Of a stretch of 64,000 nt of DNA, positions 2,903 to 52,635 are shown piece after piece. Numbering within the stretch: the stretch's first letter is position 1; each line of letters opens with the position of its first letter. Both the position numbers and the translations under genes were made by a program. The stretch is from an uncultured virus (IMG/VR IMGVR_UViG_3300005201_000009) (taxonomy: Duplodnaviria; Heunggongvirae; Uroviricota; Caudoviricetes), in IMG/VR virus record IMGVR_UViG_3300005201_000009; one strand, 5' to 3'. The notes under the pieces are model-generated. The model was not told the DNA's origin. It ran no database searches and saw only the letters and a list, made by a program, of their open reading frames with translations.

Positions 2903-3068
2903 GGTATTACATCATTAAGAGTGGTGAACCGGTGTTTGCGTATGAAGTTTACGTTAACTTTTCAGACACAGATGAAAAGCATCAGGAGCCTGATCGAAAA
3001 CTTGCGGTCTTTGCCAGCCGCGAAGACGCGACGAAGTTCATGCTGATTAAAAACAGGGAGGTGCAAAA

Positions 3069-3407
3069 TTGTTAGTGCTATTAATTTTATCGGCAATCAT
3101 AGGATTGGTTGCGTTCGGTTTTTCAGGTATCGGCGTTCTTGGGATTGCCGTAGGTGCTGTCGTTTTTGTGCTCGGGTTGCCGGGCGCGTTAATCGGTGGG
3201 TTTATTCACGGCGAGGTGTCGTACGCGCAGGACGCTGCCGATTACCGGCAAATATGTGCCGACATAGCGGCGTACGAAAGAGCGGAAGAACATGAGTACG
3301 CCGAGGACTTTCGCAGCGAGCGCCTGACAGACGCGCTCACCGACAGTCCGAGGCAGGTTTATGTCGACAATCGCAAGCAGCAGGTATTTTTGCAAGGGGG
3401 CAAATGA
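3069..3407 (+). CDS. Hypothetical membrane protein
   Basis: Two hydrophobic N-terminal helices; in operon. Confidence 0.6.
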   Translation: MLVLLILSAIIGLVAFGFSGIGVLGIAVGAVVFVLGLPGALIGGFIHGEVSYAQDAADYRQICADIAAYERAEEHEYAEDFRSERLTDALTDSPRQVYVDNRKQQVFLQGGK

Positions 3408-18952: not shown

Positions 18953-19179
18953 TTATTAAAGTGGGTGATATTATTCGTATCACCAAAGGCAAAGGACATC
19001 TCTATGAGGTAACAGCTGTCTGCCTCGGCGGCACACGAAATGAGGACCTAGTGGAACTCATGTCGTTGACCGAAGAACCGGGCAGTGATAGCGGAGGCAC
19101 GGTGCGCGGTACAACGATTGTACCGCTACCGATTATCCAAAGATGCTTCGAGTATCTTTACAGGCGGGCGGCGCTATGA
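18949..19179 (+). CDS. Hypothetical protein (DUF1653-like)
   Basis: 'KGKGHLYEVTAV...EDLV'; ATGA coupling. Confidence 0.5.
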   Translation: MIIKVGDIIRITKGKGHLYEVTAVCLGGTRNEDLVELMSLTEEPGSDSGGTVRGTTIVPLPIIQRCFEYLYRRAAL

Positions 19180-20300
19180 GCGGCGGCATAGACAAAAAAC
19201 CGACCGTACACTTTCACGAAGACAGCAAACTGCACTATCTTGCGGGAAAAGACCGCGTGTTGTTCGAGAACGGGGTGACGATGCCGCGTTTTCAGTTTGA
19301 TCGAACACAAGATAAAAGCGACCCAACTAACATTGTGGGGTACTGCAAAGACGTCTTAGAAGAACAAAATCCCGACAACACCGGCTATGACTGGAAGTAC
19401 GCGTGTAGTACCGGCAAGCTACGCCACAGGAAGGTGCTACCTGATCTCGTGGTCAGCACTAAATCCCAGCGCAAGTTCCGCAAACAGGTGGCCGCCGCAT
19501 CCGCTGTCAAACAAGAAGAACAGAAGAAAAAAGCGCTGCATACATGGGTGTTTTCTTCTGTCTTTCTGGTCATGGCGGTCATGGCCATCGTCGGTGTCGG
19601 CAGCGCGATAATGTCGGCGTATCACACGTCGGCATTTCTCATCCAAGGCGGCAAGCCGACGTGGACGGCGGTTCTGACCGGGACGATGCTTATTTTGTTT
19701 TCCGGCACGGCGTTCACGGCAGCGCGGTATTTCTTACAGGAGAATGGCTGGCAGCGATCGTTCGGGTTTCTGTTTATAATCGCCGGGTTCGCCGTTATCG
19801 CGTACTCAATATTTTCTACGGTTACGGTTAACTTCAATCAGTTTAAATGGGTCGACGACGCGAAAGACGTTGTTGCGGTGGAAGACAGTGAGGCACTGGC
19901 GGCGCACGAGCGGCTGTTAGTCGAAAACAAGGAGGCGCTTAATGCCGTTGAAAGAAGGCTGGGACAGCTACAGGCTGAGGCATACTACTGGCGAGACAAG
20001 TCGTGGCGAAGGTACGACGAGTTTCAGTTACAGATTGTCGCCGCTGTACAGGAGCAAGGCGATTTGGGGCAAAGAAGAATTGCACTTGAATCCTCCCGGC
20101 CGGAGATCGTCGCCCAAGCTGCGGAGTCGCGGGAAACAGTGTACACGTTCTTGGCTCGACTATTAGGGCTGCCCGAAGACACCGCGCGGTTTTTTGTGTA
20201 TATCGTGCCGGCGTGCTTGTATGATGTACTTGCACCGTTCGCGCTGTCGGTGGTGCTTTTACTCGTCGATCGGAGACGAAAAATCATGGAGGATACATGA
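19176..20300 (+). CDS. Multi-pass membrane protein with coiled coil
   Basis: Three TM-like helices, a coiled-coil region and a C-terminal TM. Confidence 0.7.
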   Translation: MSGGIDKKPTVHFHEDSKLHYLAGKDRVLFENGVTMPRFQFDRTQDKSDPTNIVGYCKDVLEEQNPDNTGYDWKYACSTGKLRHRKVLPDLVVSTKSQRKFRKQVAAASAVKQEEQKKKALHTWVFSSVFLVMAVMAIVGVGSAIMSAYHTSAFLIQGGKPTWTAVLTGTMLILFSGTAFTAARYFLQENGWQRSFGFLFIIAGFAVIAYSIFSTVTVNFNQFKWVDDAKDVVAVEDSEALAAHERLLVENKEALNAVERRLGQLQAEAYYWRDKSWRRYDEFQLQIVAAVQEQGDLGQRRIALESSRPEIVAQAAESRETVYTFLARLLGLPEDTARFFVYIVPACLYDVLAPFALSVVLLLVDRRRKIMEDT

Positions 20301-21100
20301 AAATAGGCGACATTATAAAAGGTAAGCCGGAAAGTGATAAAGAATACTATGTTACTAATTCGGCGATGACTCGGGGCGCGATTGTCAGCTTCTCCGACCT
20401 ATATGCGCGTGTGAGGGTCCTTGCGCACACGGGTGGTGTAATAGGCACACATCAGGTTAGGAAGGATCTGCTTGAGTCGCTGTTTGAGGTTGTTGGGCAC
20501 ATAATGCCTTTTGACAGCCTCGAGGTTGCAGCACTACTCCGTGACGGTGATAAGAAAGCAATCTCAGACTACGATTTGAGCGCTGGTAGCCTACGTGATA
20601 GTAATTTGCGCGGCGCAGACTTAAGCGGTCTTAACCTAATCAATGTTGACTTGAGAGGGGCGTGCTTGCAAAATGCTTGCTTACGTAATACCCATTTGAG
20701 TCAGACCAAGTTGGAGTACAGCAATATGGAGTGCGCGGATTTAAGCGGTTCTTTTTTACGCGGTGTCAGCCTGCGCGGTGTCAATTTACGCAAAGCTAAC
20801 TTAAGCTACTGTGTTTTAGTAAACGCAGACTTGCGGGAAGCATTTTTACAGGGTGCTAACATTATTGGCGCTGATATAGACTTTTGCTGTTTGCCGTTAA
20901 GCTGCGGCGGGCTCGAGTGGCACATTGACAAGCACACAGCCCGGCAGCTCGCTTACCACTTCTGTTCTATGCGGTGTGATGAGGTCGAATATATTAAACT
21001 GCGGGATATTATGTTGCCATTTGCTAATCAATTTCATCGCGTGGATGAGTGCGGAGTGTTGGGATCAGTCGAAGAGGTGAATAATGAAAGCACTGGATGA
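20297..21100 (+). CDS. Pentapeptide-repeat protein
   Basis: A(D/N)Lxx repeats; C-terminal 'ADIDFCCLPLSCGGL'. Confidence 0.85.
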   Translation: MKIGDIIKGKPESDKEYYVTNSAMTRGAIVSFSDLYARVRVLAHTGGVIGTHQVRKDLLESLFEVVGHIMPFDSLEVAALLRDGDKKAISDYDLSAGSLRDSNLRGADLSGLNLINVDLRGACLQNACLRNTHLSQTKLEYSNMECADLSGSFLRGVSLRGVNLRKANLSYCVLVNADLREAFLQGANIIGADIDFCCLPLSCGGLEWHIDKHTARQLAYHFCSMRCDEVEYIKLRDIMLPFANQFHRVDECGVLGSVEEVNNESTG

Positions 21101-21231
21101 TCTACTTGAAAAACTAAGTAACCTCTACTTCCCTATTTACGTAAAGGGTAAGGAGTACCCAGACAATAATCCATAGTGAAGAAAACAACGGACATTTAGC
21201 GGGCGAATAATAAGAATAGATAAAGCTCCAC

Positions 21232-21699
21232 TCATTTATTCCACGGCTGCGTTATTAGTACTACCATCCCTGCGGTAGCCAGCAAACACGCGCTCAATGT
21301 TATCGATGTAGTCCGATAAAACATCAACTTCCTGTTCAAGGAGTTGTAGTAGGTCGCCTGATCGTCTATTAGATTTCCGAAGTTCTCTACGAGTAACAAT
21401 TGCCTCTGTTGTGAGTTCATAGATTCGGCTAAGCCGTTCATTATTTGCTCGTTGCTCTTTTTCAAATTCAGGATATACTCTGCCTGCCTCTGTTGTGAGT
21501 TCATGGATTCGATCAAGTCGTTCATTATTTGCTCGTTGTTCGTTTCCAAGCTCTGTATATACTCGGCTGATCTCTGTTGCTCTTCCTTCAACTCTGAGAT
21601 TATTTCGCGTATTGGCTGCACCGCATTGGTAGGCTCCAAAGCAAACACTGAGAATGAGAAGCACGATAATACCAGCAGCGATAAAAGTTTTCGTAACAT
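21232..21699 (-). CDS. Putative spanin-like protein B (signal peptide, coiled coil, C-terminal TM)
   Basis: MLRKLLSLLVLSCFSFSVFA signal; heptad repeats; hydrophobic C-terminus; overlaps 21236-21703 in another frame. Confidence 0.5.
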   Translation of the reverse strand: MLRKLLSLLVLSCFSFSVFALEPTNAVQPIREIISELKEEQQRSAEYIQSLETNNEQIMNDLIESMNSQQRQAEYILNLKKSNEQIMNGLAESMNSQQRQLLLVENFGNLIDDQATYYNSLNRKLMFYRTTSITLSACLLATAGMVVLITQPWNK

Positions 21700-21703
21700 T
21701 CAT
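21236..21703 (-). CDS. Putative i-spanin (Rz-like)
   Basis: N-terminal TM followed by coiled coil; ATGA overlap with the endolysin; AGGAGG RBS. Confidence 0.6.
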   Translation of the reverse strand: MNVTKTFIAAGIIVLLILSVCFGAYQCGAANTRNNLRVEGRATEISRVYTELGNEQRANNERLDRIHELTTEAGRVYPEFEKEQRANNERLSRIYELTTEAIVTRRELRKSNRRSGDLLQLLEQEVDVLSDYIDNIERVFAGYRRDGSTNNAAVE

Positions 21704-22152
21704 TTTTCCTCCTTCTTAACTAGCCAGCCTAAAAGCCGATCGTAGCTCCAATATCCTATATGCGCACCCTTCTGCAGGGCACCTTTTTTCAACGCTTTCT
21801 CATTAGCAATACCGTCTTGTTCAAACACGACAATTTTTTCGTTGCCTGTCTCAAGGCAGATCGCGATATGCCCAAACCTATTTGTGCCAGACGGCTTAAA
21901 GATTACCAGTGAACCGACAGGTGGTTGTACCGTGCCGGTATACGGGACACACCAGCAAAGCTTCTTCTGTACAGAACGCCCATTATGTAAAAAGATGAAA
22001 TCCACCGCACCTACAACCGGCTCCGGCTGCTGTGTAAATTTCCATACGTCCTTCATATACTGGCGTGCCAAATCGACACACTGTGCACCGTAAGCCTTAT
22101 CAAAGTCAACTGGAACATCTTTATATCTGTCGACGAATTCTTGAAGATTCAT
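21700..22152 (-). CDS. CHAP-domain endolysin
   Basis: 'DFDKAYGAQCVDLARQY', 'GHIAI', 'FEQD'. Confidence 0.85.
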   Translation of the reverse strand: MNLQEFVDRYKDVPVDFDKAYGAQCVDLARQYMKDVWKFTQQPEPVVGAVDFIFLHNGRSVQKKLCWCVPYTGTVQPPVGSLVIFKPSGTNRFGHIAICLETGNEKIVVFEQDGIANEKALKKGALQKGAHIGYWSYDRLLGWLVKKEEK

Positions 22153-22163
22153 ACATGTCTCCT

Positions 22164-22616
22164 CTACACAACACCGGCAAGGCTTATTTTGAAAGATAGG
22201 TTTTCTTTGCCTCCATTTTTTACTGTGAATGCCTCTACCTTGACGCCCGAGCCTTCCTCTGCCACAGCCTTCTGTACTTGCTGCATTATGAGCGGAACCG
22301 GCACTTCGCCTATAACAGCCTCCGCCCACTGAATACCGTCTTTAGGTTCGGTTGGGTCACCGCCACGCTGTTTCATCATAGCAAACATAGAACGGTCAAG
22401 CATTTCTGAACGGCTATCGTTGAGCACTCTGACATCAACGATATAGTTCTTTCTGTCTTGTATCGGAATTTTGCCGGCAGCGCTGTAAATTTCCTGGTGG
22501 GTAAACTGTTCATCATCTCCAAAAACAGGAAATAGATCGCAAATGTTGTCTAGTAACACTTCTGCCAGACCGCCTTTATACACCCGCTTTTCTTTTCTGC
22601 TTACTATAAAGTCCAT
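22164..22616 (-). CDS. Putative baseplate wedge / sheath-initiator-like protein
   Basis: End of the tail module; 'DGIQWAE' motif. Confidence 0.4.
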   Translation of the reverse strand: MDFIVSRKEKRVYKGGLAEVLLDNICDLFPVFGDDEQFTHQEIYSAAGKIPIQDRKNYIVDVRVLNDSRSEMLDRSMFAMMKQRGGDPTEPKDGIQWAEAVIGEVPVPLIMQQVQKAVAEEGSGVKVEAFTVKNGGKENLSFKISLAGVV

Positions 22617-22617
22617 G

Positions 22618-23199
22618 CTATTCCTCCGGCCACTTAACCTCAAGCGGCCACCCCGGCTGTTGCTTTACAGCCAGTAATGCGGCCATCTTTGCCCGGCGCT
22701 CGGCTGCGTAGGCATCGTCAATCTCTGCCTGCGCAACAGCCTCCGGCGTCTGCAACTCCGAAAGCCTTCGCTGCAATTCGGCGGTATTTACTGCAGCCGT
22801 GCGCTGGTCAAGCTCAGCCTGCGTTACCAGCCCGGCCGCTACCTGTTCTTCCAGCGTCATGGGGACTATTTCCCCGTTGGTAACTTTGTACCCCAGCGGC
22901 GGAGCGTCCACTCCCACAAGGATGCGTTCTGTCTGCGTCATTTTGCGCAGCTCATCCCCCTCCCGCACGTAGCCCTCCGGCATGGGAATTATCCCCTCGT
23001 CGATAAGTTGCACGTTGCTTTTTCGTACCCAATTTTCATCGTAAAAATCAACGTGATCAGAGATCGTTACTTTTGTGCCTTTTGGTACTTCCACCCGTTC
23101 ATGACCGTAAAATTCAGTCCCGTAAAAATCGCAGTTAATATCCCCTGCATGTGATCCCGTGATGACACCGTTTAGCGTTGTAATGAAATAGACTACCAT
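22618..23199 (-). CDS. Tail fibre assembly-like protein
   Basis: Follows the tail fibre; C-terminus 'QQPGWPLEVKWPE'. Confidence 0.65.
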   Translation of the reverse strand: MVVYFITTLNGVITGSHAGDINCDFYGTEFYGHERVEVPKGTKVTISDHVDFYDENWVRKSNVQLIDEGIIPMPEGYVREGDELRKMTQTERILVGVDAPPLGYKVTNGEIVPMTLEEQVAAGLVTQAELDQRTAAVNTAELQRRLSELQTPEAVAQAEIDDAYAAERRAKMAALLAVKQQPGWPLEVKWPEE

Positions 23200-47139: not shown

Positions 47140-48969
47140 TCATCCGCGTATTTTCCCCTCGGCCTTCGCCAAACCCTCGCGGCGCGCCCGAGTGCCCCGC
47201 GTTTTCTCGTGCTTGTGCTGTTCCAAACGCGAATACCCGCTCGAACCGCCCTTTTTACCCGGCACCGACCCGAAACCGCCAACGTCCCCAGCGTGCTTCG
47301 CCTGCTCCTCGAGCAATTTAATCTGCGCGTCCAGTTCCTGCATTTCCTTGTCGTGCCGCTGTTTATCACGCTCGTCCATCTCTTTTTGGCGTTTTTTCAA
47401 GTCGTCATAAATATCCGAGCGCACGTTGAACTCGTCGTCGCCATAGGACTGCATGAACTCCATGCACACGTCTTTCGGAATTTCCGCAGCCACGAGGTCA
47501 AACACCATTTTCCCCAGCTTCGAGCCGATATCGGCGCGCTTGTCTGCTCCGGCTACAATCGGGTTATCAAACTCAATGGTGGTGTAAGGAAGCGCTGCAA
47601 TAACGTCCCGGTCCTTCCCCAGCGCGTTAATAACTTCCAGCATGGCAATATTCTTCAGCTGTGCCGCGACATCGCGGTGAATGTACTTTATGCTCTCCCA
47701 TTGCTTCTCCTGAGCGCCCTCGGTGGGGTCGCCGGACGAAAAAGCGCCCCGCTCACTGGACCACAGGAGTTCTTCGGGGATGTTCGCCTTGCCGCCGACA
47801 TCCTGCCGGATGAGCCGCACGAGGTTGGGGACTTCTTTAAAATCACGCTGGAGCGCTTTAATATCGCCAATAACGTCCATGCTGACCGGGTTATTCACCG
47901 ACGTTTCGCGTATCTTCAACGTGTTCTGCCAGTCAACGTTATTGAGAACGTCCATGCCTTCCGCGACCATATAGCTGTCGAGATTGAGCGTCCGCACTAA
48001 AATCGACATCTGCGCGATCATCGTCGGTATCGCCGACATGACGTTTTGATAGTTGTACACCGCTTCTATCCAGCCGGGTATGTCCGATATGCCCCATCCC
48101 ATGGTCATCAGCGTCGCCCAATACCCCGGCTGCGGCGCGGTCACAATGCGCGCGCACCGCTGCCCGGACACATGCGTGCCTAAAAACGGGATGTAGTATT
48201 GTTTCGGCGTAAGAAAATCTTCGGCGGTCGGGTTCCAATTAGGAATGTGCACCGTGTTCCACCGATCCAAAACCACCCAGCGATCGATGCAGCCCTTGCC
48301 GACAATACCCCATTTTGCCAGCGTCTCAACCGGCAGATTAAGCGACAGCGGACTGTCCTTCTTAAACATAGGGAACATCAGGCTGCCGCCGTATAAAAGG
48401 CTTTGTACCAGCCCTTCGGCGTTCCTGCCGGCCAACCCGTTCTGCAACATATCGTCACGTATAATATCAAGCTGTTTCGGCTCCAGCCGGGGATTGCGTA
48501 TGCGCATCCCGTTCAGCAGAGGAGATTTGCCTTTTTTATTGATAATGGTTTCAGAAAGCCCTTTTTGGCTGTAAATGGCCGCCGCTTCCCACGGGCTGAT
48601 GTACAGGTTGGGCGTTACCACGTTCATTGTTGACGGATCTTGCCCCGTCACACCGCTCATGGTCGGCAGGTTAGCCATTGCGTCGCGCACGGTTGCGGTA
48701 ACCGGTTGCGATGTTTTCCAGTTATTAATTACGAGCGGGACGAGCTCGGCGCTTCGTTCTTGCGCGTCTTTAAGGCTGCACAGCTTTATCCCGTGCCGCT
48801 GCCGCGCCGCTTTTTCCTCTGCTTCGATCAAGATATTGATTTCTTCGTGTTTGGTGTACGGCAGCGCCTTAAAATGCACGCTGTCCCTAACAGATATCTC
48901 CGTGCCTTGATAGCGCGTGGACGTGTTCGCCCGATTGATAATCCGCCAAATATTCTGCCAGAGAGACAT
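47140..48969 (-). CDS. Portal protein (DUF1073-like)
   Basis: 'LYGGS', 'VVLDRW', 'WG.SD', 'ANIPEELL'; position between terminase and protease. Confidence 0.8.
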   Translation of the reverse strand: MSLWQNIWRIINRANTSTRYQGTEISVRDSVHFKALPYTKHEEINILIEAEEKAARQRHGIKLCSLKDAQERSAELVPLVINNWKTSQPVTATVRDAMANLPTMSGVTGQDPSTMNVVTPNLYISPWEAAAIYSQKGLSETIINKKGKSPLLNGMRIRNPRLEPKQLDIIRDDMLQNGLAGRNAEGLVQSLLYGGSLMFPMFKKDSPLSLNLPVETLAKWGIVGKGCIDRWVVLDRWNTVHIPNWNPTAEDFLTPKQYYIPFLGTHVSGQRCARIVTAPQPGYWATLMTMGWGISDIPGWIEAVYNYQNVMSAIPTMIAQMSILVRTLNLDSYMVAEGMDVLNNVDWQNTLKIRETSVNNPVSMDVIGDIKALQRDFKEVPNLVRLIRQDVGGKANIPEELLWSSERGAFSSGDPTEGAQEKQWESIKYIHRDVAAQLKNIAMLEVINALGKDRDVIAALPYTTIEFDNPIVAGADKRADIGSKLGKMVFDLVAAEIPKDVCMEFMQSYGDDEFNVRSDIYDDLKKRQKEMDERDKQRHDKEMQELDAQIKLLEEQAKHAGDVGGFGSVPGKKGGSSGYSRLEQHKHEKTRGTRARREGLAKAEGKIRG

Positions 48970-50040: not shown

Positions 50041-52635
50041 TCAGGGTGCCCTCTTAATGAAGGCGCCGGGGTCGATTTCAACATAGCCGCCGTCAAGGCG
50101 TTTAACCGATGGCGTTTTAGCCGCGTCGTCACGCAAAGACGCCCTTTTATCCGCGATGAGCTTACGTATATCGGCAAAGTCGGGGTGCGTGGCCACAATA
50201 TGTACTGCGGCGTAGCGCGCACCGTCCAAGGTGTGAATAGGACTGCTTTTACCTACTCCTTTTGGGATTTTGTTGTCCTTGTCCCGCATAGCAAGATTAA
50301 GTGCCTCGGCAACGTCTTTGGCAATTTTACAAACTATGAACCGACTCAGATAGCATAACTTGCTGACCAAGAAACACGAATCCTCTACCAGCGGGCTTTT
50401 TTTCTTGTAAATAATCTTAATATTGTACCGACGCAACTCTTGCGCCATAGACGGGAATGTGTCCTTTATAGTCACATCCGGCAGCCATTTGATTTCCTGC
50501 TCGGGAAAGTCGTGCCGCACAACACTCGCCGCGTCGTCGAGACTGGGGAAGTCATAGTGTTTTATGCAGTATATCACACCGCCGCGCACGACGTACGCAG
50601 AGCCGCGATTATAGCCGGTATTCACATCCTGCGCCCAATAAACTACCTCATCAGGCCTTAATTTAATATCCAAATCATAACCGACGTAATTGCGCGCCCA
50701 ATCAAACCCCGGGATAACCCGCCCCTTGGCAATCGATAGAAACTCGCCGTGCATGAACACCTCGCGCTCCTCGGGGGTGTACATTTTGTACATGTCTTCG
50801 ATGAGACTTTTTGGTAAAAACGGGTTGTGCTCAGTCCACCCTCTAATAAGAACGAACGCGATACCCGTCTTCTTAAAATGACAGTATACCGCGTATAGCC
50901 CCTTCTGGCCTTGTGATGTGCTCGCAAAACAATTATGGACTAGAAACTTGTTTGTAAAAAACTCGTGCTCGTCTTCAACAGTTATATCATACACGGACTC
51001 TAATTTTCGCAGCGCGTGTAGGGGAACAAGTTTTTGCATGCCTTCTTTTACGTGTCCTAAAAGCTTTTCCACAAATGATGCACGCTCTATCCTCAAAAAA
51101 CTTTCTTCCAAACCCAGGTTTATCAATTGTTCTAATCTTATCACGGCATCTCTGAGAGCAGAAGTGAGACGGCAATTTTGATATATATTTTGTTTTACAA
51201 ACAAAGCACTCACATTCGTAGTGTCCCGCACCTCTTTCTCTGCTTTTTTCACGAGCGGCTTCTTTAGCCTGCCTGTTCCTACGAAGCCTTCTACAAGTTT
51301 CACACCTAACACGCTGCTCCGCGCCTGTCGTAAAAACAGCCCTACAATCGACACAAACCTTCCTAATCGAGACTTTGTTCCAAACACCTGTATAGGTTCC
51401 TTGACTTCGCTTTTTGTCGCGTTCTTTACACTGGTTTTTACGTCTGACTGTCTGGCATCTATCACACCTAATCTTGTTTTTTCCGTCTGTGATAACCATT
51501 TCTCCACAATCAACACAAGGTCTATAGTAAAAGCTCTGTTTATTTCCTCCGTGATATACGTTGTGTTGGTGCTCTGTAACGCAGTCCAAGTTTTCAATAG
51601 TGTTATTAGCTGTGTTAAAATCTTTATGGTGTATAACCATTCCTGCTGAAACCGCCCCGTGAACGCTTTCCCATACAGCCACATGCAGTGCCTTAGATCT
51701 TTCACCCTTAGACGCAATAGACCTGTAATATCCTTGAGGCTTTTTAGGGTTGTGTTGCCAATAGTATCTAACCCCATTAAAAGCAACAGAGCTTCGTTTG
51801 TCTTTTTCAAACAATTTTGTATCTTTTGCCACTGCTTTACTCTCCGTAATGAAATTGATAATAAATGCTCATTGTTCTTTATCGTTCCAACTTCTTGCCA
51901 ATCTTTTATGCTCTCATTCCACACTGTGTGATCTGGTGTTAAGGGAACGCCGTGAACACGAACTATCTCTCGATACCCTGTGTTGTACTTACCGATAATC
52001 CTTCGCCATCCGCGTCGAGTAAGCACAAAATCCCCAACACTAATGTCTACTATGCGGCATAAAAAAGGATCGGTCAACCCGTATATACGTTTTACATCTA
52101 CTTTTCTACATATAATCTTTGCATTCCCTCCCAGGCAAGTGCACGGCCCCCGCTCACCAGGTATCACCTGCCGGCAGCGCTCGTTTAGCGCTTTGGTCGC
52201 TTCCAGCATTTTATCCGTCGTAAGCTCGTCCGCTTCCTCGACGTAAATCTTATGCACATCCAGCCCGAATATCTCGCCGGGGTTCTCCAACGGCTGCAAC
52301 AGCACCGTCACCGTGCCGATAGTGAAGTAGTTGAATTTCTTATTCTCGATATACGGAGTCTTGCTGTCGTCCAAATACTGCCGGAAATATATTAAAAACG
52401 TCTTTTCCAAGTGGCTGAGCGTGATGCCGCAAACCATGAGACGCACGTAGTCACCGGCACGGTCTTTCTTTCCTTGAAGCCTTTTTACATCGTACAGCAC
52501 ATGTAAGACGTTGGCGCGCGTTTTACCTGCCCCATAACCGCAACAAAGGAAGAACCACTTTACTTTATGAAATAAAGACGGCGCTTGCATATAATAACTT
52601 TGGTGTGGTAAAACGATCGCTCTTTTCACGATCAA
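50041..52635 (-). CDS. terL: Terminase large subunit containing an intein
   Basis: 'LPHQ', Walker A 'GYGAGKT', Walker B 'IYVEEADE', 'NPFLP', nuclease 'QDVN...HTLDGARY'. Confidence 0.92.
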   Translation of the reverse strand: MIVKRAIVLPHQSYYMQAPSLFHKVKWFFLCCGYGAGKTRANVLHVLYDVKRLQGKKDRAGDYVRLMVCGITLSHLEKTFLIYFRQYLDDSKTPYIENKKFNYFTIGTVTVLLQPLENPGEIFGLDVHKIYVEEADELTTDKMLEATKALNERCRQVIPGERGPCTCLGGNAKIICRKVDVKRIYGLTDPFLCRIVDISVGDFVLTRRGWRRIIGKYNTGYREIVRVHGVPLTPDHTVWNESIKDWQEVGTIKNNEHLLSISLRRVKQWQKIQNCLKKTNEALLLLMGLDTIGNTTLKSLKDITGLLRLRVKDLRHCMWLYGKAFTGRFQQEWLYTIKILTQLITLLKTWTALQSTNTTYITEEINRAFTIDLVLIVEKWLSQTEKTRLGVIDARQSDVKTSVKNATKSEVKEPIQVFGTKSRLGRFVSIVGLFLRQARSSVLGVKLVEGFVGTGRLKKPLVKKAEKEVRDTTNVSALFVKQNIYQNCRLTSALRDAVIRLEQLINLGLEESFLRIERASFVEKLLGHVKEGMQKLVPLHALRKLESVYDITVEDEHEFFTNKFLVHNCFASTSQGQKGLYAVYCHFKKTGIAFVLIRGWTEHNPFLPKSLIEDMYKMYTPEEREVFMHGEFLSIAKGRVIPGFDWARNYVGYDLDIKLRPDEVVYWAQDVNTGYNRGSAYVVRGGVIYCIKHYDFPSLDDAASVVRHDFPEQEIKWLPDVTIKDTFPSMAQELRRYNIKIIYKKKSPLVEDSCFLVSKLCYLSRFIVCKIAKDVAEALNLAMRDKDNKIPKGVGKSSPIHTLDGARYAAVHIVATHPDFADIRKLIADKRASLRDDAAKTPSVKRLDGGYVEIDPGAFIKRAP
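50932..52137 (-). mobile_element. Intein (402 aa) in TerL
   Basis: Block A C-LGGNAKI, block B 'LTPDH', block F 'VYDITVEDEHEFF', block G 'LVHN/C'. Confidence 0.9.
50987..51832 (-). CDS. HNH homing endonuclease with multiple CxxC Zn fingers, out of frame inside the intein
   Basis: 'LHVAVWESVHG...IHHKDFNTANNTIENL...H...H'; GGAG RBS before GTG. Confidence 0.85.
   Translation of the reverse strand: MAKDTKLFEKDKRSSVAFNGVRYYWQHNPKKPQGYYRSIASKGERSKALHVAVWESVHGAVSAGMVIHHKDFNTANNTIENLDCVTEHQHNVYHGGNKQSFYYRPCVDCGEMVITDGKNKIRCDRCQTVRRKNQCKERDKKRSQGTYTGVWNKVSIRKVCVDCRAVFTTGAEQRVRCETCRRLRRNRQAKEAAREKSRERGAGHYECECFVCKTKYISKLPSHFCSQRCRDKIRTIDKPGFGRKFFEDRACIICGKAFRTRKRRHAKTCSPTRAAKIRVRV

What the first reader, a model, noticed from the sequence alone, without database searches (positions are those of the whole stretch)
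21232..21703. Two equal-length (155 aa) membrane coiled-coil genes overlapping almost completely in different frames, next to the endolysin
Seen: same-strand ORFs offset by 4 nt at both ends (ATG 21703 and 21699) and sharing one AGGAGG. One has an N-terminal TM and coiled coil; the other has a signal peptide, coiled coil and C-terminal TM. An internal duplication with 84-bp period (21401/21485) adds four heptads to both frames at once. Known: Rz/Rz1 spanins are nested, but Rz1 is a short Pro-rich lipoprotein. Inference: a non-canonical two-component spanin in which dual coding keeps both rods length-matched, perhaps adapted to the spirochaete envelope.
Basis: partly seen in the sequence, partly recalled or inferred. 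Interest (0 to 1): 0.7.

Follow-up and report, generated by a model that had tools for sequence, protein, structure and literature searches.

The report
Two-frame overlapping phage lysis gene pair
One stretch of phage DNA beside the cell-wall-cutting enzyme is read in two frames to give two different membrane-anchored helical rod proteins, and both readings are preserved in distant relatives: an unusually complete case of dual coding, in what is probably a new kind of envelope-breaking (spanin-like) module.

Summary
Two 155-codon minus-strand ORFs (A 21236-21703, B 21232-21699) overlap almost fully. Their ATGs lie 4 nt apart behind one AAGGAGG, directly after a CHAP endolysin, and both carry an 84-bp tandem duplication. 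This is not chance. Both frames are open in 12 of 12 loci with DNA (window plus 11 relatives, B identity down to 26-46%). The other four frames carry 1-22 stops each. Random synonymous recoding of either protein predicts 3-10 stops in the other frame. B shows wobble-like variation. A is conserved beyond what B imposes. Overlap-aware omega is about 0.59 for A and 0.33 for B. The pair is the last gene unit of lysis cassettes that use four different hydrolase types, which is the spanin position. A (N-terminal TM plus one long helix) gives repeated weak hits to Rz-like i-spanin families. B (Sec-type signal, long helix, C-terminal TM) lacks a lipobox in 32 of 35 family members, so it is neither a canonical o-spanin nor a canonical u-spanin. 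Best reading: a genuine dual-coding, spanin-like module of a new architecture. Dual coding is about 0.9 likely and the spanin role about 0.55. The spirochaete host is only a lead. Exact equal length is not general; length matching follows automatically from the overlap.

The parts
21236..21703 (-). Gene A: 155 aa. N-terminal TM segment, then a long charged helix. Rz-like i-spanin architecture.
   Evidence: ORF; hydropathy; AF2: one helix 3-148, pLDDT 84. Weak Rz-like spanin PHROG hits. The frame is open in 12 of 12 loci.
21232..21699 (-). Gene B, in the +1 frame of A: 155 aa. Sec-type signal peptide, long helix, C-terminal TM anchor.
   Evidence: ORF; hydropathy; AF2: helix 27-150, pLDDT 92. 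Family of 30 proteins. Wobble-like variation at B codon position 3.
21708..21714 (-). Shared Shine-Dalgarno AAGGAGG, 4 nt before A's ATG and 8 nt before B's ATG.
   Evidence: All 12 loci have a purine-rich Shine-Dalgarno-like stretch (mostly GGAGG or GAGGG) just upstream of the paired starts.
21697..21703 (-). Tandem starts ATGAATG. Its internal TGA is the stop codon of the endolysin, so the arrangement looks like translational coupling.
   Evidence: A 4-nt start offset occurs in 10 of 12 loci. L006 has GTGGGTG and L009 has GTGAATG.
21232..21238 (-). Overlapping stops TAAATGA: A stops at TAA, and B stops at TGA 4 nt later.
   Evidence: The same +4 arrangement occurs in L008, L010 and L011. B stops 8-14 nt before A in L001-L007.
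21629..21688 (-). DNA encoding A's TM segment (about residues 6-25). Read in the +1 frame it also encodes the hydrophobic core of B's signal peptide.
   Evidence: The T-rich second and third codon positions of A give B an h-region rich in Ser, Cys and Phe.
21640..21699 (-). B signal peptide (residues 1-20), with the predicted signal-peptidase-I site VFA|LEPT.
   Evidence: an AxA-like site in 35 of 35 family members; a separate helix 3-19 followed by a break.
21250..21309 (-). B C-terminal TM anchor (about residues 131-150).
   Evidence: hydropathy, 12 of 12 loci. (conserved across the wide family).
21401..21579 (-). 84-bp tandem duplication (2.1 copies). It adds 28 residues, or four heptads, to both proteins.
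   Evidence: It is absent from 12 of the 13 A-family proteins and from 5 of the 7 close loci.
21347..21373 (-). Most conserved block. It reads SNRRSGDLL in A and overlaps GNLIDDQA in B.
   Evidence: The block is retained in remote loci L008-L011.
21700..22152 (-). CHAP-domain endolysin, immediately upstream, with no signal sequence.
   Evidence: PF05257 E 1.2e-7, above the cut-off. PHROG endolysin/amidase families down to E 4.5e-15.

Best explanation
This is a genuine dual-coding gene pair that forms the last unit of a phage lysis cassette.

Translation. One mRNA segment, co-transcribed with and probably translationally coupled to the endolysin, is read from two start codons 4 nt apart behind a single Shine-Dalgarno site. 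The two reads give two unrelated proteins of about equal length.

The two proteins:
- A is a type-II inner-membrane protein: an N-terminal TM segment, then a charged periplasmic helix of about 95-120 residues (14-18 nm if straight). That is the architecture of an Rz-type i-spanin.
- B is exported by a cleavable Sec signal and stays tail-anchored in the inner membrane by a C-terminal TM segment. Its periplasmic helix is about 75-100 residues long.

Proposed role. The pair occupies the spanin role. The two rods accumulate in the envelope and, once the endolysin has removed the peptidoglycan, they act on the outer membrane. They do so without the lipoprotein anchor that defines known o- and u-spanins.

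Shown here:
- Both frames are conserved and under purifying selection.
- The topogenic signals are present.
- The pair sits in the lysis cassette.

Inferred, not shown:
- Both frames are translated.
- A and B interact.
- The target is the outer membrane.
- The host is a diderm (possibly a spirochaete).
For: Dual coding:
- B is open in 7 of 7 loci that were found through A. A is open in 4 of 4 loci that were found through B.
- Only these two of the six frames are stop-free.
- Expected stops in the partner frame under synonymous recoding are 6-9 in the close loci, with P(open) <= 0.0013. In the remote loci they are 3-10, with P = 0, 0, 0 and 0.035.
- At least 112 B-synonymous codon changes have occurred. 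About 7% of such mutations would create a stop in A, which gives P of about 3e-4.
- Variability by A codon position is 0.314 / 0.177 / 0.180, so the wobble-like position belongs to B.
- B's synonymous divergence (pS 0.40-0.51) is lower than that of neighbouring genes in the same locus pairs (0.47-0.86).
- Overlap-aware rates give omega A = 0.59 (NN 84 changes over 568 sites against SN 63 over 252.8) and omega B = 0.33.
- Between remote loci, A-frame identity exceeds the B-only null in 9 of 10 pairs at p < 0.03. B exceeds the A-only null in 10 of 10 pairs.
- Gene callers picked the A frame for 22 database proteins. The B-profile search found 30 proteins, one of them the window's own.

Lysis role:
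- The pair directly follows, or lies one gene from, CHAP (window, L002), Peptidase_M15_4 (L006, L011), Peptidase_C39_2 (L005, L010) or DUF261 (L003, L009) genes.
- Small TM holin-like ORFs lie beside it in 8 loci.

Spanin likeness of A:
- 7 of the 18 PHROG families hit by A-family members are 'Rz-like spanin' (best E 4e-4).

Structure:
- AlphaFold2 models both proteins as long helices, and both show heptad-like periodicity.
Against: - There is no lipobox in B (32 of 35 lack one) or in A (24 of 26 lack one). No known route therefore ties either protein to the outer membrane, which is the defining property of spanins.
- All Rz-like hits are weak (E 4e-4 to 0.05). They could reflect only the generic TM-plus-charged-helix pattern.
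- Translation of both frames is not demonstrated.
- The host and its envelope type are unknown.
- The window and L001 show no holin next to the endolysin, so a holin-type role for A/B cannot be excluded.
- omega A of 0.59 is only moderate constraint.
- The loci are phylogenetically related, and the pairs are not independent.
- Nothing was found in 50,697 GenBank phage records or in representative genomes, so no characterised relative exists to borrow a function from.
Confidence: 0.55

Rival explanations
1. Both frames are real, but the pair is not an outer-membrane disruptor. It acts at the inner membrane as a holin/antiholin-type or lysis-timing module, in the way of T4 T and RI. T4 T is a single-TM holin with a large periplasmic domain, and RI is a secreted or signal-anchored periplasmic partner. 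Alternatively the pair releases or activates the endolysin.
For: - Both proteins are predicted to be anchored in the inner membrane, and neither has a lipobox.
- The window's CHAP endolysin has no signal sequence, and no holin-like ORF lies beside it. B is the only ORF of 50-200 aa with two hydrophobic segments in the cassette.
- L001 also lacks an adjacent small TM ORF.
Against: - In 8 of 12 loci a separate small holin-like ORF with 2-3 hydrophobic segments already sits next to the hydrolase. The holin role is therefore probably taken.
- The pair is always distal to the hydrolase, as spanins are.
- A's weak profile hits go to Rz-like spanin families, not to holin families.
- The window has another holin-like candidate at 3069-3407.
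Confidence: 0.2
2. Both frames are real, but the module has no lysis function. It would be, for example, a membrane-located superinfection-exclusion or envelope-modifying moron that merely travels with the lysis cassette.
For: - No characterised homologue exists.
- Small membrane proteins at the ends of late operons are often morons.
- In L010 the pair lies next to an integrase, at a prophage end.
Against: The linkage to four unrelated hydrolase types across 12 loci points to a function tied to lysis, not a hitch-hiker. The window itself looks like a phage with its own replication genes and no integrase was noticed.
Confidence: 0.1
3. Only B is a gene. Frame A would be a conserved shadow ORF, kept open by B's amino-acid and codon composition or by some other constraint on B's synonymous sites such as mRNA structure.
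For: - B is the better conserved frame, with omega 0.33 against 0.59.
- B shows wobble-like third-position variation.
- B's GC3 (0.59) matches the phage's (0.56), while A's GC3 is 0.32.
- Shuffling codons within the gene leaves A open in 0.3-6.7% of trials.
- The record's own gene call was B.
Against: - A is open in 12 of 12 loci although 3-10 stops are expected. About 7% of B-silent mutations would close it, and at least 112 such changes have occurred.
- A keeps a start codon beside the SD in all loci, including a joint ATG-to-GTG change in L006.
- A keeps an N-terminal TM segment in 12 of 12 loci.
- A's sequence is conserved beyond the B-only null in 9 of 10 remote pairs.
- NN changes are rarer than SN changes: 0.148 against 0.249 per site.
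Confidence: 0.07
4. Only A (an i-spanin) is a gene, and B is a shadow ORF.
For: Gene callers chose frame A in 13 close and 9 remote database entries. A has the weak Rz-like hits.
Against: - A's third codon position is not the most variable (0.180 against 0.314 at position 1). That is incompatible with A being the only coding frame.
- B exceeds the A-only null in 10 of 10 remote pairs, z 3.6-6.7.
- B keeps its signal peptide and C-terminal TM in 12 of 12 loci.
- B defines a family of 30 proteins.
Confidence: 0.01

Closest known systems
Lambda Rz/Rz1, the embedded two-component spanin (Kongari et al. 2018, PMC6139136; passages read)
   Same: - The second gene lies in the +1 frame inside or over the first, and both products serve one lysis step.
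- It is the last unit of the lysis cassette.
- A, like Rz, has an N-terminal TM segment and a helical coiled-coil periplasmic domain.
- In L001-L007, B is literally embedded in A.
   Different: - Rz1 is a short, Pro-rich OM lipoprotein that covers only part of Rz. That description is recalled and agrees with the passages.
- Here the embedded protein is as long as its host gene (overlap about 97-100%) and is all-helical.
- It has a signal-peptidase-I type signal and a C-terminal TM segment, and no lipobox.
- The starts are 4 nt apart on one SD.
T1 gp11, the unimolecular spanin (PMC6139136)
   Same: B has the same linear layout: an N-terminal export signal, a periplasmic domain and a C-terminal TM segment. 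It is the last gene of the lysis cassette.
   Different: - u-spanins are defined by an OM-lipoprotein signal. B lacks it in 32 of 35 family members.
- The gp11 periplasmic domain is predicted to be mainly beta, while B is one long helix.
- u-spanins work alone, while B is always co-encoded with A.
T4 holin T and antiholin RI (recalled, not read here)
   Same: A single-TM protein with a large periplasmic domain, plus a partner exported by an N-terminal signal. Both act from the inner membrane.
   Different: - Those are separate, non-overlapping genes that lie outside a cassette, and their periplasmic domains are globular.
- Here there are separate holin-like ORFs in 8 of 12 loci.
Long same-strand overlapping genes of small viruses, such as phiX174, and overprinted genes (listings of PMC8227390 and PMC4316641, abstracts only)
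   Same: One DNA segment encodes two proteins in different frames, with asymmetric purifying selection on the two frames.
   Different: In those cases the overlaps are usually partial and the younger protein is often disordered. Here the overlap is essentially total, both products are ordered membrane helices with matching heptad-type periodicity, and both belong to one functional cassette of a large tailed phage.
Tail-anchored coiled-coil fusogens (SNAREs). This is a resemblance in how it might work, not a membership claim.
   Same: B is a long helix ending in a C-terminal TM anchor. The ESM Atlas structure neighbours include a SNARE/Sec20 cluster.
   Different: The TM-score is 0.49, below 0.5, and there is no sequence relation. 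This is only an analogy.

Membership tests
i-spanin (Rz-like), tested for protein A | N-terminal transmembrane domain giving N-in / C-out topology | tested here: met
   One N-terminal hydrophobic segment in 12 of 12 loci, preceded by Lys/Glu-rich residues. The topology itself is inferred.
i-spanin (Rz-like), tested for protein A | Alpha-helical, coiled-coil periplasmic domain | tested here: met
   AF2 gives one helix, residues 3-148, pLDDT 84. The 3.5-residue hydrophobic periodicity has p = 0.000 in 4 of 4 loci.
i-spanin (Rz-like), tested for protein A | Sequence membership in a described i-spanin family | tested here: inconclusive
   The window's A hits phrog_1152 at E 0.017. Family members hit 7 different Rz-like spanin PHROGs, best E 4e-4, with at most 4 of 18 members per family. 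There is no Pfam hit above cut-off.
i-spanin (Rz-like), tested for protein A | Gene located in the lysis cassette with the endolysin and holin | tested here: met
   A hydrolase gene is adjacent or one gene away in 9 of 12 loci (window, L002, L003, L005, L006, L009, L010, L011, plus an unrecognised 161-aa ORF in L001). L004 and L007 are cut upstream, and nothing was recognised in L008.
i-spanin (Rz-like), tested for protein A | A cognate OM-lipoprotein o-spanin gene, embedded, overlapping or adjacent | tested here: not met
   The embedded partner B lacks a lipobox. No other lipoprotein-type ORF was seen downstream.
o-spanin (Rz1-like), tested for protein B | Lipoprotein signal with lipobox [LVI][ASTVI][GAS]C | tested here: not met
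   Found in 3 of 35 distinct B sequences. In two of them the Cys is at residue 7, which is too early. The window's LVLSC does not fit the pattern, and 35 of 35 have an AxA-type site. Cys13 is invariant only in the close clade and is lost in the wide family.
o-spanin (Rz1-like), tested for protein B | Small periplasmic domain with no TM segment | tested here: not met
   B has a C-terminal TM segment in 12 of 12 loci. It is a helix of more than 100 residues with only 1-4 Pro.
o-spanin (Rz1-like), tested for protein B | Embedded or overlapped in the +1 frame of the i-spanin gene | tested here: met
   B is in the +1 frame in all 12 loci and is fully embedded in L001-L007.
u-spanin (T1 gp11-like), tested for protein B | OM-lipoprotein signal at the N-terminus | tested here: not met
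   as above.
u-spanin (T1 gp11-like), tested for protein B | C-terminal TM domain | tested here: met
Functional spanin of any class | Required for outer-membrane disruption, or complements an Rz/Rz1 defect | not testable with these tools
   This needs a bench test.
Dual-coding (overlapping) gene pair | Both frames open in diverged homologues beyond chance | tested here: met
   12 of 12 loci, with nulls.
Dual-coding (overlapping) gene pair | Purifying selection on both protein sequences | tested here: met
   omega A 0.59 and omega B 0.33. Conservation in each frame exceeds what the other frame imposes.
Dual-coding (overlapping) gene pair | Both products are made | not testable with these tools
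   No ribosome profiling or proteomic data were available here. Only start codons and a shared SD were seen.

The most novel reading that the evidence does not exclude
This is a lipid-anchor-free spanin system. Two helical rods are read from the same DNA in two frames and made in a ratio fixed by competition between two start codons at one ribosome-binding site. They pair in the periplasm, running antiparallel in sequence but side by side in space. Once the wall is gone they bring the inner and outer membranes together in the manner of SNAREs or class-I fusion proteins. The outer membrane would be reached by a free rod tip or by B's released N-terminal hydrophobic segment, not by a lipoprotein. 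Total overlap would then force co-inheritance, co-expression and heptad-for-heptad co-variation in length of the two partners (the 7- and 28-codon indels). The envelope in question is possibly that of spirochaetes.
Probability: 0.3. Interest if true: 0.85.

Novelty: new variant of a known kind. Interest (0 to 1): 0.78.

Why it matters
Scale of the overlap. Nested Rz/Rz1 is the textbook case of two lysis proteins read from one DNA segment. This pair takes the idea to its limit. About 125-155 codons are read in two frames over essentially their whole length. Both products are ordered membrane proteins, and the arrangement has persisted while the proteins diverged to about 25-45% identity.

Value for studying overlapping genes. 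This gives a compact natural system for asking how two structured proteins can co-evolve on one sequence. Here a TM helix and a signal peptide share codons, and two heptad patterns share a 21-nt period.

Value for lysis biology. If the pair is the outer-membrane step of lysis, it defines a spanin class without a lipoprotein. Current spanin finders demand a lipobox and so cannot see it (passage). About 15% of phages of diderm hosts are currently counted as spaninless (abstract of 10.1101/515445 in the listing; 91 of 677 genomes in Kongari et al.). A lipobox-free class could account for some of them.

Value for annotation. Gene callers reported only one of the two frames per contig, sometimes A and sometimes B.

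Tried and rejected
- Complex prediction. Complex prediction on the periplasmic parts of A (27-155) and B (21-130), each with its alignment, scored 0.10 and 0.19 against a mark of 0.32. That is no verdict, so I do not use it either way.
- Fold searches. I did not run them, because single long helices give meaningless matches.
- PDB profile searches. They returned only generic coiled coils, with E >= 0.005.
- Whole-genome tools. No genome is held for this window.
- Earlier findings of the scan. Nothing came back.
- Close-relative scans of viral contigs with A, B or alignment A1. None found.
None found.
- Further viral scans for the most divergent B members. None found. Two alignments were too loose for the tool to use. 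So I could not learn whether the most distant B proteins also carry frame A, and the origin of the overlap by overprinting stays open.
- GenBank phage records. No match for A or for three B-family proteins. A polA search gave only relatives at about 30% identity on many different hosts, so it gave no host call.
- Codon-usage test for the older frame. It was uninformative because this phage has weak codon bias.
- History of the duplication. Whether the window and L001 share one duplication event is ambiguous. The second units are 0.80 identical between the two loci, and the first and second units within a locus are 0.70-0.71 identical.
- Holin search in the window by similarity to the holin-like ORFs of other loci. 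Only chance-level hits.
- Promoter and terminator scan of 20900-22400. No promoter-like site within or between the endolysin gene and A/B (the single hit lies downstream of the pair, at 21037-21008), and no terminator.
- Lipoprotein reading of B's invariant Cys13. I rejected it. The Cys is lost in the wider family. It is also explained by A's codons there (Val GTG followed by a C/T-initial Leu or Phe codon), which read TG[C/T] in frame B.
- Literature searches. Nothing was found on spanins of Treponema phages (2 papers, both about Porphyromonas phages) or on DUF261 (0 papers). I did not find this architecture in the Kongari et al. passages I read. I read neither the whole paper nor its supplementary tables, which list every spanin and could hold a similar case.
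Full report
**What is there.** On the minus strand, ORF A (21236..21703) and ORF B (21232..21699) each encode 155 residues, and B is in the +1 frame of A. The starts read ATGAATG, 4 and 8 nt behind AAGGAGG (21714-21708). The stops read TAAATGA. The TGA inside ATGAATG is the stop codon of the upstream gene. That gene is a 150-aa CHAP endolysin without a signal sequence (PF05257 E 1.2e-7, above cut-off; PHROG endolysin/amidase families to E 4.5e-15). An 84-bp tandem duplication (21401-21579, 2.1 copies, 83% matches) lengthens both proteins by 28 residues.

A has one N-terminal hydrophobic segment. B has an N-terminal and a C-terminal one. AlphaFold2 with family alignments models A as a single helix 3-148 (pLDDT 84). 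It models B as helix 3-19, a break, then one helix 27-150 that includes the C-terminal anchor (pLDDT 92). Both show 3.5-residue hydrophobic periodicity above shuffles in 8 of 8 tests. The window itself is phage DNA: polA-like polymerase, helicases, ThyX and a methyltransferase, a portal and tail-fibre and baseplate genes. No whole genome is held for it.

**Is the double ORF chance?** No.
- Recoding A's protein with the phage's codon usage gives a mean of 6.7-8.5 stops in frame B across 8 close loci. Recoding B's protein gives 6.0-9.4 stops in frame A. The partner frame was open in at most 0.13% of 3000 trials per locus.
- Even shuffling codons within the gene among identical residues leaves the partner frame open in only 0.07-6.7% of trials.
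- In every locus the third sense frame carries 11-22 stops and the three antisense frames carry 1-14 each. The region is therefore not generally depleted of stops.

**Relatives.**
- Word-indexed protein searches found 13 A-frame proteins (48-60% identity) and 5 B-frame proteins plus the window's own (54-60%). Gene callers had chosen one frame or the other on different contigs.
- A metagenome scan with the A alignment returned 7 loci, L001-L007. In all 7, frame B is open from an ATG or GTG 4 nt after A's start to a stop 8-14 nt before A's stop.
- An exhaustive profile search with B found 30 proteins at E <= 1e-3 (14 at <= 1e-10). Nearly all are 116-140 aa with a signal peptide, a helical middle, a GNLIDDQAxY...RKLxFWR block and a C-terminal hydrophobic tail.
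- Scans of viral contigs with subsets of these remote B proteins gave four more loci, L008-L011. In all 4, the overlapping A-like frame is open. It has an N-terminal TM segment and the conserved block (R/N)R(S/G)(S/G)DLL...E(V/I)xILE(D/N/S)(Y/F).
- Each frame was therefore tested in loci that were found through the other frame: B in 7 of 7, and A in 4 of 4.
- For the remote loci, recoding B predicts 3.1-9.8 stops in A, with P(open) of 0, 0, 0 and 0.035.
- A profile search with A then found 22 proteins. Nine are remote ones, and most begin MNEKN. On the DNA that prefix is ATGAATGAAAAA, which gives MKK in frame B.
- The start offset is 4 nt in 10 of 12 loci, and L006 has GTGGGTG, so both starts changed together. 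In L008 and L010, B's ATG comes first. A must then start at a GTG 2 nt later or at an ATG further upstream.

**Selection.**
- Across the 8 close loci, mean pairwise differences at A's codon positions 1, 2 and 3 are 0.314, 0.177 and 0.180 over 126 columns. The wobble-like position is B's third position. This rules out 'A only'.
- B's synonymous divergence is damped relative to neighbouring genes in the same locus pairs:

| Locus pair | B pS | Neighbouring gene | Neighbour pS |
|---|---|---|---|
| Window-L002 | 0.47 | CHAP endolysin | 0.82 |
| Window-L001 | 0.51 | upstream ORF | 0.86 |
| L002-L003 | 0.44 | holin-like ORF | 0.78 |
| L004-L007 | 0.40 | downstream gene | 0.47 |

  Phage mosaicism makes this control imperfect.
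- About 6-8% of B-silent point mutations would create a stop in A. At least 112 B-silent codon changes separate the 8 sequences and none did so, which gives roughly P = 3e-4. The converse for A-silent changes gives about 1e-3.
- I used a Wei-Zhang-type classification on three phylogenetically independent pairs. Changes non-synonymous in both frames occur at 0.148 per site (84 over 568). Changes synonymous in A only occur at 0.249 (63 over 252.8). Changes synonymous in B only occur at 0.443 (105 over 237.2). This gives omega A of about 0.59 and omega B of about 0.33. By my own hand calculation, the A contrast has z of about 3.5.
- Between remote loci (B identity 26-45%, where silent sites must be saturated), A-frame identity exceeds the expectation from B's proteins with random silent codons in 9 of 10 pairs at p < 0.03 (z 0.6-4.1). 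B exceeds the A-only expectation in 10 of 10 pairs (z 3.6-6.7). Stop columns were excluded (the earlier version is). The pairs share sequences and are not independent.
- I conclude that both frames are maintained as proteins, with B under the stronger constraint. Translation itself is not shown.

**Context.** The pair always closes a lysis cassette, but the cassette around it varies.

| Hydrolase type next to the pair | Loci |
|---|---|
| CHAP | window, L002 |
| Peptidase_M15_4 | L006, L011 |
| Peptidase_C39_2 | L005, L010 |
| DUF261 | L003, L009 |
| Unrecognised 161-aa ORF | L001 |
| Nothing recognised | L008 |
| Contig cut upstream | L004, L007 |

Small ORFs with 2-3 hydrophobic segments (holin-like, no family hits) lie beside it in L002, L003, L005, L006, L007, L009, L010 and L011. 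This modular shuffling around a constant distal unit is the pattern of spanin genes described in PMC6139136 (passages). No promoter-like or terminator-like site separates the window's endolysin from A/B in a simple scan.

**What the proteins are.** A fits the i-spanin definition in topology, helicity and position. Its family members repeatedly graze seven different 'Rz-like spanin' PHROGs (best E 4e-4; the window's own is 0.017), and none of these hits is significant on its own.

B has the linear layout of a u-spanin and sits in the +1 frame as Rz1 does, but it fails the defining lipoprotein test:
- A canonical lipobox occurs in 3 of 35 distinct B sequences, two of them implausibly early in the sequence. 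All 35 have an AxA-type cleavage site about 20 residues in.
- The Cys13 that is invariant in the close clade is absent from much of the wider family.
- That Cys is what A's Val(GTG)-Leu/Phe codons read as in frame B. More generally, A's TM codons (T at positions 2 and 3) force the Ser, Cys and Phe-rich core of B's signal peptide.

B is therefore most simply a Sec-exported, signal-peptidase-I-processed, tail-anchored inner-membrane helix. Neither protein has Pfam, PHROG or PDB relatives that say more. A, the window's B and two remote B-family proteins have no match in 50,697 GenBank phage records. Two pattern-based scans of representative genomes also found none.

**Mechanism.**
- Committed reading (0.55): a spanin-equivalent made of two inner-membrane-anchored rods.
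- Shown: the signals, the helices, the conservation and the cassette position.
- Inferred: one mRNA and one SD with two competing starts, with possible re-initiation after the endolysin's TGA, would set the A:B ratio. Both rods would project about 11-18 nm into the periplasm. They would act after wall degradation.
- Open: how the outer membrane is engaged without a lipid anchor. This is the main evidence against the reading, and it keeps an inner-membrane role (holin/antiholin-like, 0.2) alive. That rival gains weight because the window and L001 have no holin beside a signal-less endolysin. A holin-like 112-aa ORF does exist elsewhere in the window.
- Indels in the family are 28 codons (window, L001) and 7 codons (L003, L004). 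These are whole heptads, and they necessarily hit both proteins. This agrees with register-sensitive rods but would also happen if only one frame mattered.

**Host.** Not established. There are two leads.
- One of the three nearest ESM Atlas clusters (123 aa, score 0.85, below the tool's 0.9 bar) is labelled Spirochaetota on the strength of 2 members.
- The DUF261 gene in the endolysin slot of L009 matches 33 plasmid records out of 72,556, all of them Borreliella. On lp54 it lies about 2.9 kb from a phage terminase gene.
The small single-domain hydrolases fit diderm hosts; that is general knowledge, not tested here.

**Novelty.** Nested spanin genes are textbook. A near-total, same-strand overlap of two ordered membrane proteins, conserved to about 25-45% identity, with a non-lipoprotein partner, is not in the material I could read. 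That material was the Kongari et al. passages, a methods passage of PMC12596118, and the search listings. I did not read the supplementary spanin tables. I file this as a new variant of a known kind.

Noticed in passing
window 50041-52635 (-), beside the portal gene 47140-48969 (-): This 864-aa ORF in the terminase position has a weak intein-splicing-domain hit (PF14890, E 2.6e-5, 24.5 bits, below the cut-off of 35.8) spanning residues 232-568. It may be an intein-interrupted large terminase. The portal is PF06381, E 2.7e-16.
   Followed up: partly
window 3069-3407 (+): A 112-aa ORF whose first 48 residues are two back-to-back hydrophobic segments, followed by an acidic tail. It looks holin-like but lies in the replication-gene arm, far from the endolysin. 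It has no Pfam hit.
   Followed up: partly
L003 918-1322, L009 3490-3927, and L012 (Borreliella lp54) 2953-3384: A DUF261 protein (PF03196, E 1e-10 and 7e-14) sits in the endolysin slot, between a holin-like ORF and the A/B pair. Its only plasmid relatives are Borreliella lp54 genes annotated DUF261, which lie near a PBSX-family terminase gene. DUF261 may therefore be a spirochaete-phage cell-wall hydrolase.
   Followed up: partly
window 20297-21100 (+) and 19143-20300 (+): A pentapeptide-repeat protein (PF00805, E 2.1e-28) and a 385-aa multi-TM protein with a coiled-coil tail converge on the end of the lysis cassette. Their function is unknown.
   Followed up: no
window 21137-21235 (-): A 32-codon ORF (P0059) starts at the ATG inside TAAATGA, immediately after A's stop and in A's frame. 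It is partly hydrophobic. It was not seen downstream in the other loci, which carry different genes there.
   Followed up: no
window 22164-22643 (-) and L001 2040-2531: A conserved 159/163-aa ORF (58% identity) lies directly upstream of the hydrolase in the two loci that lack an adjacent holin-like ORF. It has no family hit and no hydrophobic segment.
   Followed up: no
L010 3851-5341 (-): In L010 the A/B pair lies next to a 496-aa ORF whose sequence looks like a tyrosine integrase (judged by eye, no family search was run). At least this relative would then be a temperate phage or prophage end.
   Followed up: no
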